Position numbers and translations under genes: made by a program
Notes under the pieces: generated by a model
The model's database searches: none
Seen by the model: only the letters and a program-made list of their open reading frames with translations
What the model was told of the DNA's origin: nothing
Part shown: positions 7,796 to 7,893 of the stretch, in pieces
How the letters are laid out: every line of letters starts with the position of its first letter
How positions within the stretch are numbered: position 1 is the stretch's first letter
Source: a virus
Taxonomy: Duplodnaviria; Heunggongvirae; Uroviricota; Caudoviricetes
DNA length: 7,893 nt
Reading direction: 5' to 3' (one strand)
Virus record (IMG/VR): IMGVR_UViG_2693429536_000010

Positions 7796-7893
7796 TGTCA
7801 CGAACGGTGCAATAGTGATCCACACCCAACGCCTGAAATCAGATCCAGGGGGTAATCTGCTCTCCTGATTCAGGAGAGCTTATGGTCACTTTT
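7796..7893 (+). mobile_element. Probable left end of an insertion sequence (IS21-family, IS100-like) inserted into exo; partial, continues past the window
   Basis: Lambda-like exo sequence stops abruptly at 7795/7796. The new sequence begins TGTCACGAACGG, contains a 21-bp perfect palindrome GCTCTCCTGATTCAGGAGAGC (7861-7881), then ATG GTC ACT TTT (7882-7893; MVTF), which I recall as the start of IS100-type IstA. Only 98 bp are visible. Confidence 0.55.

What the first reader, a model, noticed from the sequence alone, without database searches (positions are those of the whole stretch)
7796..7893. exo interrupted by an apparent IS21-family (IS100-like) insertion
Lambda-like exo sequence breaks off after codon 103 at nt 7795/7796. 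The following sequence starts with TGTCA (IS21-family termini begin TGT), carries a 21-bp perfect palindrome, and then an ATG encoding MVTF that matches my recollection of the IS100 IstA start. The exo frame reads through into 23 unrelated codons before stopping, so Red-alpha exonuclease is inactivated. That implies a defective or domesticated prophage whose Red recombination is broken while bet and gam remain.
Basis: partly seen in the sequence, partly recalled or inferred. Interest (0 to 1): 0.5.

Follow-up and report, generated by a model that had tools for sequence, protein, structure and literature searches.

The report
IS100 insertion splitting prophage exo gene
A well-known jumping gene (insertion sequence IS100) has landed in the exonuclease gene of a lambda-like prophage in an E. 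coli draft genome and split it in two; this is an ordinary, recent mutation.

Summary
The observation and its main interpretation are correct. Homology to lambda-type exo stops exactly at 7795. Bases 7796-7893 are 100% identical to the left end of IS100 (IS21 family) in thousands of E. coli, Shigella and Yersinia records, and the annotated istA start falls on the ATG at 7882. The window is a complete 7893-bp contig of an E. coli draft assembly, so it cannot be extended; it ends because IS100 is a repeat. I found the other side in a sister assembly that also carries the left junction. There the IS100 right end (…CGTCGTTGACA) is followed by GAATC and the rest of exo, then xis, int and ybhC. GAATC is a 5-bp target-site duplication. 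Removing IS100 and one GAATC rebuilds a 681-nt exo identical to an intact allele, so this was a simple, recent transposition. The break at codon 103 separates the N-terminal part from the catalytic residues D119, E129 and K131, so Exo should be inactive; gam and bet are intact. The inference of a "defective or domesticated prophage" is not established, because exo is not essential for phage growth. A separate 98-bp deletion that destroys kil does hint at early decay. The finding is of low interest.

The parts
7488..7795 (+). 5' part of the lambda-type exo gene (red-alpha): codons 1-102 plus two bases of codon 103
   Evidence: Pfam YqaJ hit on the ORF. Identical over 7400-7795 to the intact exo of NZ_CP151038.1. 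The rebuilt protein matches lambda exonuclease structures 1AVQ and 6M9K at E = 3.5e-153.
7791..7795 (+). Target site GAATC, left copy of the 5-bp target-site duplication
   Evidence: In L009 the right junction reads ...CGTCGTTGACA|GAATC|CCCGATC. In the window the left junction reads ...ACTGAATC|TGTCACG.
7796..7893 (+). Left end of IS100 (IS21 family), first 98 nt of the 1,954-bp element. The contig ends here because the IS is a repeat.
   Evidence: 98/98 identity to IS100 copies in thousands of records. The 1,954-bp element was delimited in L007. The window is the whole contig CYEP01000052.1.
7796..7847 (+). Left terminal inverted repeat region. It starts 5'-TGTCA and has GATCCA-containing repeats at 7817 and 7842.
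   Evidence: Alignment of the left end with the reverse complement of the right end: TGTCA(A)CGA(A)CGG...AGTGATCCAC is shared. GATCCA occurs at IS positions 22 and 47 on the left and at 22 and 56 on the right.
7859..7879 (+). 10+1+10 inverted repeat inside IS100. It overlaps the istA Shine-Dalgarno sequence (GGAGAG, 7873-7878) and the stop codon of the exo' fusion ORF.
   Evidence: Sequence. The RNA fold gives a 9-bp stem with a 3-nt loop. The whole 98-nt leader folds at -32.8 kcal/mol, z = -2.7.
7882..7893 (+). First four codons of istA (MVTF), the IS100 transposase gene
   Evidence: The position coincides with the annotated istA start in L006 and L007. Sister contig L002 extends the reading to [18 protein letters not shown].
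7488..7868 (+). Truncated Exo fusion ORF of 126 aa (103 Exo residues plus 23 IS-encoded residues). It lacks the catalytic D119, E129 and K131.
   Evidence: Translation. This exact protein is deposited as CTU41247.1 and others, 'exonuclease [Escherichia coli]', on 7 contigs.
6706..7491 (+). bet (261 aa), intact (context)
   Evidence: Pfam RecT hit. No gaps and 3 mismatches against L008 over 6278-7795.
6404..6700 (+). gam (98 aa), intact (context)
   Evidence: Pfam Gam hit. Same length as the annotated Gam in L008.

Best explanation
A complete or near-complete copy of IS100 (IS21 family, 1,954 bp, genes istA and istB) transposed into codon 103 of the exo gene. The host is a lambda-like prophage integrated at the lambda attachment site, next to ybhC, in an E. 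coli lineage. IstA-mediated staggered cutting of the target duplicated 5 bp (GAATC).

The insertion splits exo into two ORFs. One is a 126-aa N-terminal fragment that terminates inside the IS. The other is a 3' fragment that carries the PD-(D/E)XK catalytic residues. The trimeric 5'-3' exonuclease therefore cannot be made. dsDNA-end Red recombination is lost, while Gam and Bet remain coded.

The IS points in the same direction as the pL operon. The event is recent, because both the IS ends and the split exo are identical to intact copies elsewhere. The window stops 98 nt into the IS because short-read assembly cannot cross a multi-copy repeat.

Shown: the identity of the IS, both junctions, the duplication and the precise restorability of exo. 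Inferred: loss of Exo activity, integrity of the IS interior, and that the right junction found in sister assemblies is also present in the window's own assembly.
For: - **IS identity.** 98/98 identity of 7796-7893 to IS100 in 2,551 E. coli records and many Shigella and Yersinia plasmids, annotated IS100 istA / 'IS100 ORF1'.
- **Break point.** exo similarity ends exactly at 7795.
- **Left junction is reproducible.** The window is the whole contig CYEP01000052.1 of GCA_001284645.2. The same left junction is on 7 contigs, five of them shown, each from a different assembly. They run 98-142 nt into IS100, and all of that sequence is identical to IS100.
- **Right junction predicted and found.** A protein predicted for the right junction under a 5-bp duplication (142 aa, MGRWWRYKWITFHPSLTESPIIY...) exists exactly in the protein collection. 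It has the same accession series (CTU/CTW) and is on 8 contigs. Predictions for 4-, 7- and 8-bp duplications were absent; a 6-bp duplication yields no junction-specific ORF and was not tested this way.
- **Right junction read directly.** Its contig L009 comes from assembly GCA_001286005.1, which also holds left-junction contig L003. It begins with 134 nt of the IS100 right end, then GAATC, then CCCGATC... of exo, then DUF1317, DUF1382, xis, int and ybhC.
- **Clean restoration.** Window exo 5' part plus L009 exo 3' part minus one GAATC gives a 681-nt ORF with 0 mismatches to the exo of NZ_CP151038.1.
- **Active site after the break.** The rebuilt protein aligns end to end with lambda exonuclease structures, and D119, E129 and K131 fall after residue 103.
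- **Family behaviour.** IS21-family transposition gives 5-bp direct repeats, uses a terminal CA and has multi-repeat ends (PMC10122671).
Against: - The interior of this IS copy is not assembled. Only 142 nt of the left end and 134 nt of the right end are seen, so an internally deleted IS100 or a larger IS100-bounded segment is not excluded.
- The right junction was read from a sister assembly, not from the window's own assembly. The match of contig counts (7 left, 7-8 right) makes co-occurrence likely but does not prove it.
- Loss of exonuclease activity is inferred from the position of the catalytic residues and was not measured.
- A second intact exo in another prophage of the same genome was not looked for.
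Confidence: 0.93

Rival explanations
1. The two junctions bound something other than one plain IS100. Candidates are an IS100-flanked composite segment, a tandem (IS100)2, or an internally deleted IS100 inserted in exo.
For: Short-read contigs stop 98-142 nt inside the left end and start 134 nt before the right end, so the interior is unseen. E. coli strains can carry up to 26 IS100 places per genome, which offers material for composites.
Against: A 5-bp duplication with correctly oriented left and right ends is the signature of a single transposition event. Full 1,954-bp IS100 copies with these same ends are the overwhelmingly common form.
Confidence: 0.05
2. The junction is an assembly artefact: a chimeric contig end that joins exo reads to IS100 reads, with no insertion in the real genome.
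For: The IS part sits at the very end of a draft contig, where mis-joins and repeat overhangs occur.
Against: The same junction is present on 7 contigs, five of them shown, each from a different assembly, with different overhang lengths (98, 99, 104, 137, 142 nt). A matching right junction shows a 5-bp duplication and restores exo precisely. Among the records ranked, none joins this exo sequence to IS100 at this position, and no continuation of exo past 7795 appears in these contigs.
Confidence: 0.01
3. IS100 mediated a rearrangement (deletion or inversion by recombination between IS copies). On this reading the exo 5' part and exo 3' part are no longer adjacent across one IS in the window's isolate.
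For: The genome must hold at least two IS100 copies for the assembly to break (inference). The right junction was read in a sister assembly only.
Against: Equal numbers of contigs carry the left- and right-junction proteins, with the same accession series. A rearrangement after insertion would be an extra, unsupported event.
Confidence: 0.02

Closest known systems
IS100 (IS21 family; Yersinia pestis, Shigella pINV plasmids, E. coli chromosomes and plasmids)
   Same: Bases 7796-7893 are 98/98 identical to it. It shares the TGTCA...TGACA termini and the istA start [11 protein letters not shown]. The duplication is 5 bp, as described for IS21-family integration.
   Different: Nothing in the visible sequence differs. 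Only the insertion site (exo codon 103) is particular to this lineage. One base differs in the last 134 nt between the right end in L009 and the IS100 copy of L007.
Bacteriophage lambda exonuclease (Red-alpha; PDB 1AVQ, 3SLP, 6M9K)
   Same: Residues 1-103 differ from lambda Exo at 2 positions. The rebuilt 226-aa protein aligns over its full length at E = 3.5e-153. The gene order gam-bet-exo matches.
   Different: The gene is split after residue 103. The window ORF lacks D119, E129 and K131 and ends in 23 IS-encoded residues.
IS100 insertion just past exo in E. coli HCP5S3_I4 (NZ_CM149869.1, locus L007)
   Same: It is the same element in the same orientation relative to the pL operon, in a closely related prophage, about 400 bp away.
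   Different: It is an independent event. It lies 21 bp after the exo stop, at the start of the DUF1317 gene, and is flanked by a 6-bp repeat, ATATCC. exo is intact there.

Membership tests
IS100 / IS21 family insertion sequence | Nucleotide identity to the reference element at its end | tested here: met
   98/98 identity to copies annotated IS100. Sister contig L002 extends the identity to 142 nt.
IS100 / IS21 family insertion sequence | Imperfect terminal inverted repeats that start 5'-TG and end CA-3' | tested here: met
   Left end is TGTCACGAACGG... (window 7796). Right end is ...CCGTCGTTGACA (L009 1-134). The ends were aligned. The reactive terminal CA is described in PMC10122671.
IS100 / IS21 family insertion sequence | Several transposase-binding repeats in each end (L1/L2, R1/R2) | tested here: inconclusive
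   GATCCA-centred motifs occur at IS positions 22 and 47 on the left and at 22 and 56 on the right. This is only a motif count; binding was not tested.
IS100 / IS21 family insertion sequence | Short target-site duplication (5 bp reported for IS21-family integration) | tested here: met
   GAATC flanks both junctions (window 7791-7795; L009 135-139). The predicted junction protein for a 5-bp duplication was found exactly, and predictions for 4, 7 and 8 bp were absent.
IS100 / IS21 family insertion sequence | Two consecutive genes: istA (DDE transposase, about 340 aa) and istB (AAA+ helper, about 260 aa) | not testable with these tools
   For this copy only istA codons 1-4 (window) or 1-18 (L002) are assembled. 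In complete genomes the identical ends enclose istA (340 aa) and istB (260 aa).
Lambda exonuclease (YqaJ-type PD-(D/E)XK recombination exonuclease) | Full-length sequence homology to lambda Exo | tested here: not met
   The window ORF holds residues 1-103 only. The remainder is on another contig, beyond the IS.
Lambda exonuclease (YqaJ-type PD-(D/E)XK recombination exonuclease) | Catalytic D119, E129 and K131 in one polypeptide with the N-terminal domain | tested here: not met
   By alignment to 6M9K and 1AVQ these residues sit at positions 119, 129 and 131 of the rebuilt protein. They are therefore in the 3' fragment only. The residue roles come from established knowledge of the lambda Exo structures.

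The most novel reading that the evidence does not exclude
In this insertion the exo' reading frame ends at TGA 7866-7868. That stop lies inside the left arm of the hairpin that pairs the istA Shine-Dalgarno sequence, 13 nt before the istA ATG. The IS also faces the same way as the N-antiterminated pL transcript. Ribosomes finishing exo' could therefore open the hairpin and couple translation into istA. IS100 transposase would then be switched on specifically when the prophage is induced (SOS), giving a prophage-induction-triggered burst of transposition.
Probability: 0.08. Interest if true: 0.4.

Novelty: already known. Interest (0 to 1): 0.1.

Why it matters
The result matters little beyond annotation. 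It explains why two 'exonuclease' fragments are annotated in these draft genomes and why the contig ends where it does. It also marks a clonal group of E. coli isolates by a unique exo::IS100 junction, which could serve as a lineage marker. And it shows a prophage Red system reduced to Gam plus Bet. It is one more example of IS-driven erosion of prophage accessory genes.

Tried and rejected
- **Same junction in complete genomes.** I looked for it in 5,426 complete E. coli genomes. None was ranked. The only record placing IS100 near exo (H41) is a different insertion, 21 bp past the exo stop.
- **Other duplication lengths.** Predicted right-junction proteins for 4-, 7- and 8-bp duplications are not in the protein collection. 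A 6-bp duplication yields no junction-specific ORF, so it was excluded only by reading L009 directly.
- **Palindrome as a terminator.** The scan found no terminator-like site there and no sigma-70-like promoter in 7400-7893.
- **kil deletion in complete genomes.** I asked whether the 98-bp deletion is shared by complete genomes. The ten best matches all carry the undeleted form, but the output does not allow a full count.
- **Unnamed ORFs.** ORFs 3575-3967 and 4651-5520 were scanned against PHROGs and PADLOC. They hit only unknown-function phage families and no defence model.
- **Searches not used.** I did not use the large homology, structure or metagenome searches, because the question was settled without them.

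Full report
**Observation**

The last 594 bases of the window were read directly. The ORF 7488-7868 translates to 126 residues. The first 103 are lambda-type Exo. The last 23 ([23 protein letters not shown]) are unrelated, and the ORF ends at TGA 7866-7868.

- A megablast of 7400-7893 against 5,426 complete E. coli genomes shows that exo similarity always covers query 1-396, so it ends at window base 7795. The pairwise comparison with an intact prophage (L008, NZ_CP151038.1) also ends at 7795.
- From 7796 the sequence reads TGTCACGAACGG.
- The 10+1+10 inverted repeat GCTCTCCTGA-T-TCAGGAGAGC lies at 7859-7879, and ATG GTC ACT TTT starts at 7882.

The only quibble is that a 21-nt sequence with a central T is not strictly self-complementary.

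**Identity of 7796-7893**

These 98 bases match IS100 98/98.

- In E. coli, 3,644 records hold a match and 2,551 of them are at >=99% identity.
- In plasmids, 1,730 records match, from Escherichia, Yersinia, Salmonella, Shigella and Klebsiella.
- The annotations are 'IS21-like element IS100 family transposase' and, in Shigella flexneri pCP301, 'IS100 ORF1'.
- The annotated istA start in L006 corresponds to window 7882, and IstA begins [28 protein letters not shown].

**Why the window ends there**

An exact look-up of the 126-aa fusion protein shows that the window is the complete contig CYEP01000052.1 (7,893 bp) of assembly GCA_001284645.2. The protein is deposited as 'exonuclease [Escherichia coli]' (CTU41247.1 and others). 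The same protein, and hence the same junction, is on 7 contigs. Five are shown (L001-L005), each from a different assembly of the same accession series. They extend 98, 142, 137, 104 and 99 nt into IS100, and all of that sequence is identical to IS100. The sequence therefore cannot be extended. The contig ends because IS100 is a repeat in that genome. That last point is an inference from normal short-read assembly behaviour.

**Finding the other side**

I delimited a whole IS100 in L007 (E. coli HCP5S3_I4) by comparing it with L008. It is 1,954 bp, running TGTCACG...CGTCGTTGACA.

I then built the right junctions expected for target duplications of 4 to 8 bp, using the 3' part of L008's exo, and listed the ORFs they would give.

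- An exact look-up found only the junction-specific protein for a 5-bp duplication: 142 aa, MGRWWRYKWITFHPSLTESPIIYRDES.... It is deposited as CTU31511.1, CTU56753.1, CTU59758.1 and CTW74087.1, 'exonuclease [Escherichia coli]', on 8 contigs.
- The 4-, 7- and 8-bp predictions were absent. A 6-bp duplication yields only the 115-aa internal-start ORF, which is not junction-specific.

The contig that encodes this protein (L009 = CYBU01000009.1, 203 kb) comes from GCA_001286005.1, the assembly that also holds left-junction contig L003. It starts with 134 nt of the IS100 right end, followed by GAATC and then CCCGATCATC... of exo. After exo come DUF1317, DUF1382, a TraR-like gene, xis, int, ybhC, ybhJ and ybhI.

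The left flank in the window ends ...ACTGAATC. GAATC is therefore a 5-bp target-site duplication. Joining window 7488-7795 to the L009 exo part, minus one GAATC, gives a 681-nt ORF with 0 mismatches to the exo of L008. This is the signature of a simple, recent transposition with no accompanying deletion. A 5-bp duplication, a reactive terminal CA, multi-repeat ends and weak target specificity are what has been described for IS21-family elements (PMC10122671).

**Consequence for Exo**

The rebuilt 226-aa protein aligns end to end with the lambda exonuclease structures 6M9K, 1AVQ and 3SLP (E about 1e-153, 6 differences). In that alignment the PD-(D/E)XK residues D119, E129 and K131 all lie after the break at residue 103. 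Their catalytic role is established knowledge from the lambda Exo structures.

The window ORF is therefore a catalytically dead N-terminal fragment. The 3' fragment could at best be translated from a TTG inside the IS. Loss of activity is inferred, not measured.

gam (6404-6700, 98 aa) and bet (6706-7491, 261 aa) are full length. The stretch 6278-7795 differs from L008 by 3 substitutions and no gaps. From established Red biology, Bet alone still supports single-strand annealing and Gam still inhibits RecBCD. dsDNA-end recombination needs Exo.

**Context**

The window carries, in lambda order: ninB' (cut by the contig start), ren, P, O, cII and cro on the minus strand. On the plus strand it carries cI, an unknown ORF, N, an unknown 289-aa ORF, DUF2528, cIII, gam, bet and exo'. 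With L009, the prophage sits at the lambda attachment site next to ybhC.

IS100 is oriented with istA in the direction of the pL operon, so it lies between pL and xis/int. Whether this reduces excision is unknown. N-antiterminated transcripts would be expected to read through, but that is an inference.

**Is the prophage defective?**

The evidence here does not establish this. exo is a non-essential gene in lambda (established genetics), and the late genes are on other contigs.

There is one further lesion in the window. A 98-bp deletion between two copies of AAAAAATGGAT removes kil codons 3-34, shifts the kil frame, and shortens CIII from 54 to 47 residues. The ten best-matching complete genomes all have the undeleted form. 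Two independent lesions in the pL accessory region fit early decay or selection against toxic functions. They do not show domestication.

**The hairpin**

The 98-nt IS leader folds at -32.8 kcal/mol (z = -2.7), with a 9-bp stem formed by the inverted repeat that includes the istA Shine-Dalgarno sequence. All three reading frames that enter the IS from outside meet a stop before the istA ATG: at IS positions 18, 58 and 71, against the ATG at 87. Together these look like the usual insulation of an IS transposase gene from outside expression, but that is an inference by analogy with other IS elements.

In this insertion the exo' frame stops inside the left arm of the hairpin, 13 nt before the ATG. 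This leaves open, at low probability, translational coupling of istA to pL-driven exo' translation during prophage induction. No terminator-like or promoter-like site was found at the junction.

**Rivals**

- **Assembly chimera.** This is effectively excluded by the recurrence of both junctions in independent assemblies and by the exact duplication.
- **Composite or internally deleted IS100, or a later IS-mediated rearrangement in the window's own isolate.** These cannot be excluded from short-read contigs but need extra events.

**Verdict**

The finding is real and correctly interpreted. It is ordinary: a known insertion sequence in a known prophage gene, in one clonal group of E. coli draft genomes. 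Interest is low and the element is already known.

Noticed in passing
window 6273-6288 (junction); cIII 6150-6293; former kil region 6283-6435: Relative to related prophages, 98 bp are deleted between two copies of AAAAAATGGAT. This removes kil codons 3-34 and shifts its frame, and it shortens CIII from 54 to 47 residues. The ten best-matching complete E. coli genomes all have the undeleted form.
   Followed up: partly
L007 4770-6750 (E. coli HCP5S3_I4, NZ_CM149869.1): An independent IS100 insertion lies 21 bp after the exo stop codon of a closely related prophage. It has the same orientation and is flanked by a 6-bp repeat, ATATCC, rather than 5 bp. The same prophage also carries an IS2 upstream of DUF2528.
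   Followed up: partly
window 4707-4722 and ORF 4651-5520: The run A7CACA6 is one A shorter than in L008. Here the ORF is 289 aa and matches phrog_12139 over its full length (unknown function, with a weak Nun-like C-terminal hit). In L008 only a 226-aa ORF is annotated, so a homopolymer frameshift separates the two.
   Followed up: partly
window 3575-3967: A 130-aa ORF overlaps the cI stop codon by 4 nt, at the position rexAB holds in lambda. It matches phrog_2651 (unknown function) and has no PADLOC defence hit. It also carries a 12-bp in-frame indel at about 3748 relative to L008.
   Followed up: partly
window 7796-7881 (IS100 leader): Every reading frame that enters IS100 from the left meets a stop before the istA ATG (IS positions 18, 58 and 71, against the ATG at 87). 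No insertion can therefore make an N-terminal fusion to IstA.
   Followed up: yes
window 1-223: The contig starts inside ninB with no IS sequence. The left break is probably due to nin-region sequence shared with other lambdoid prophages of the same genome. This is an inference and was not tested.
   Followed up: no
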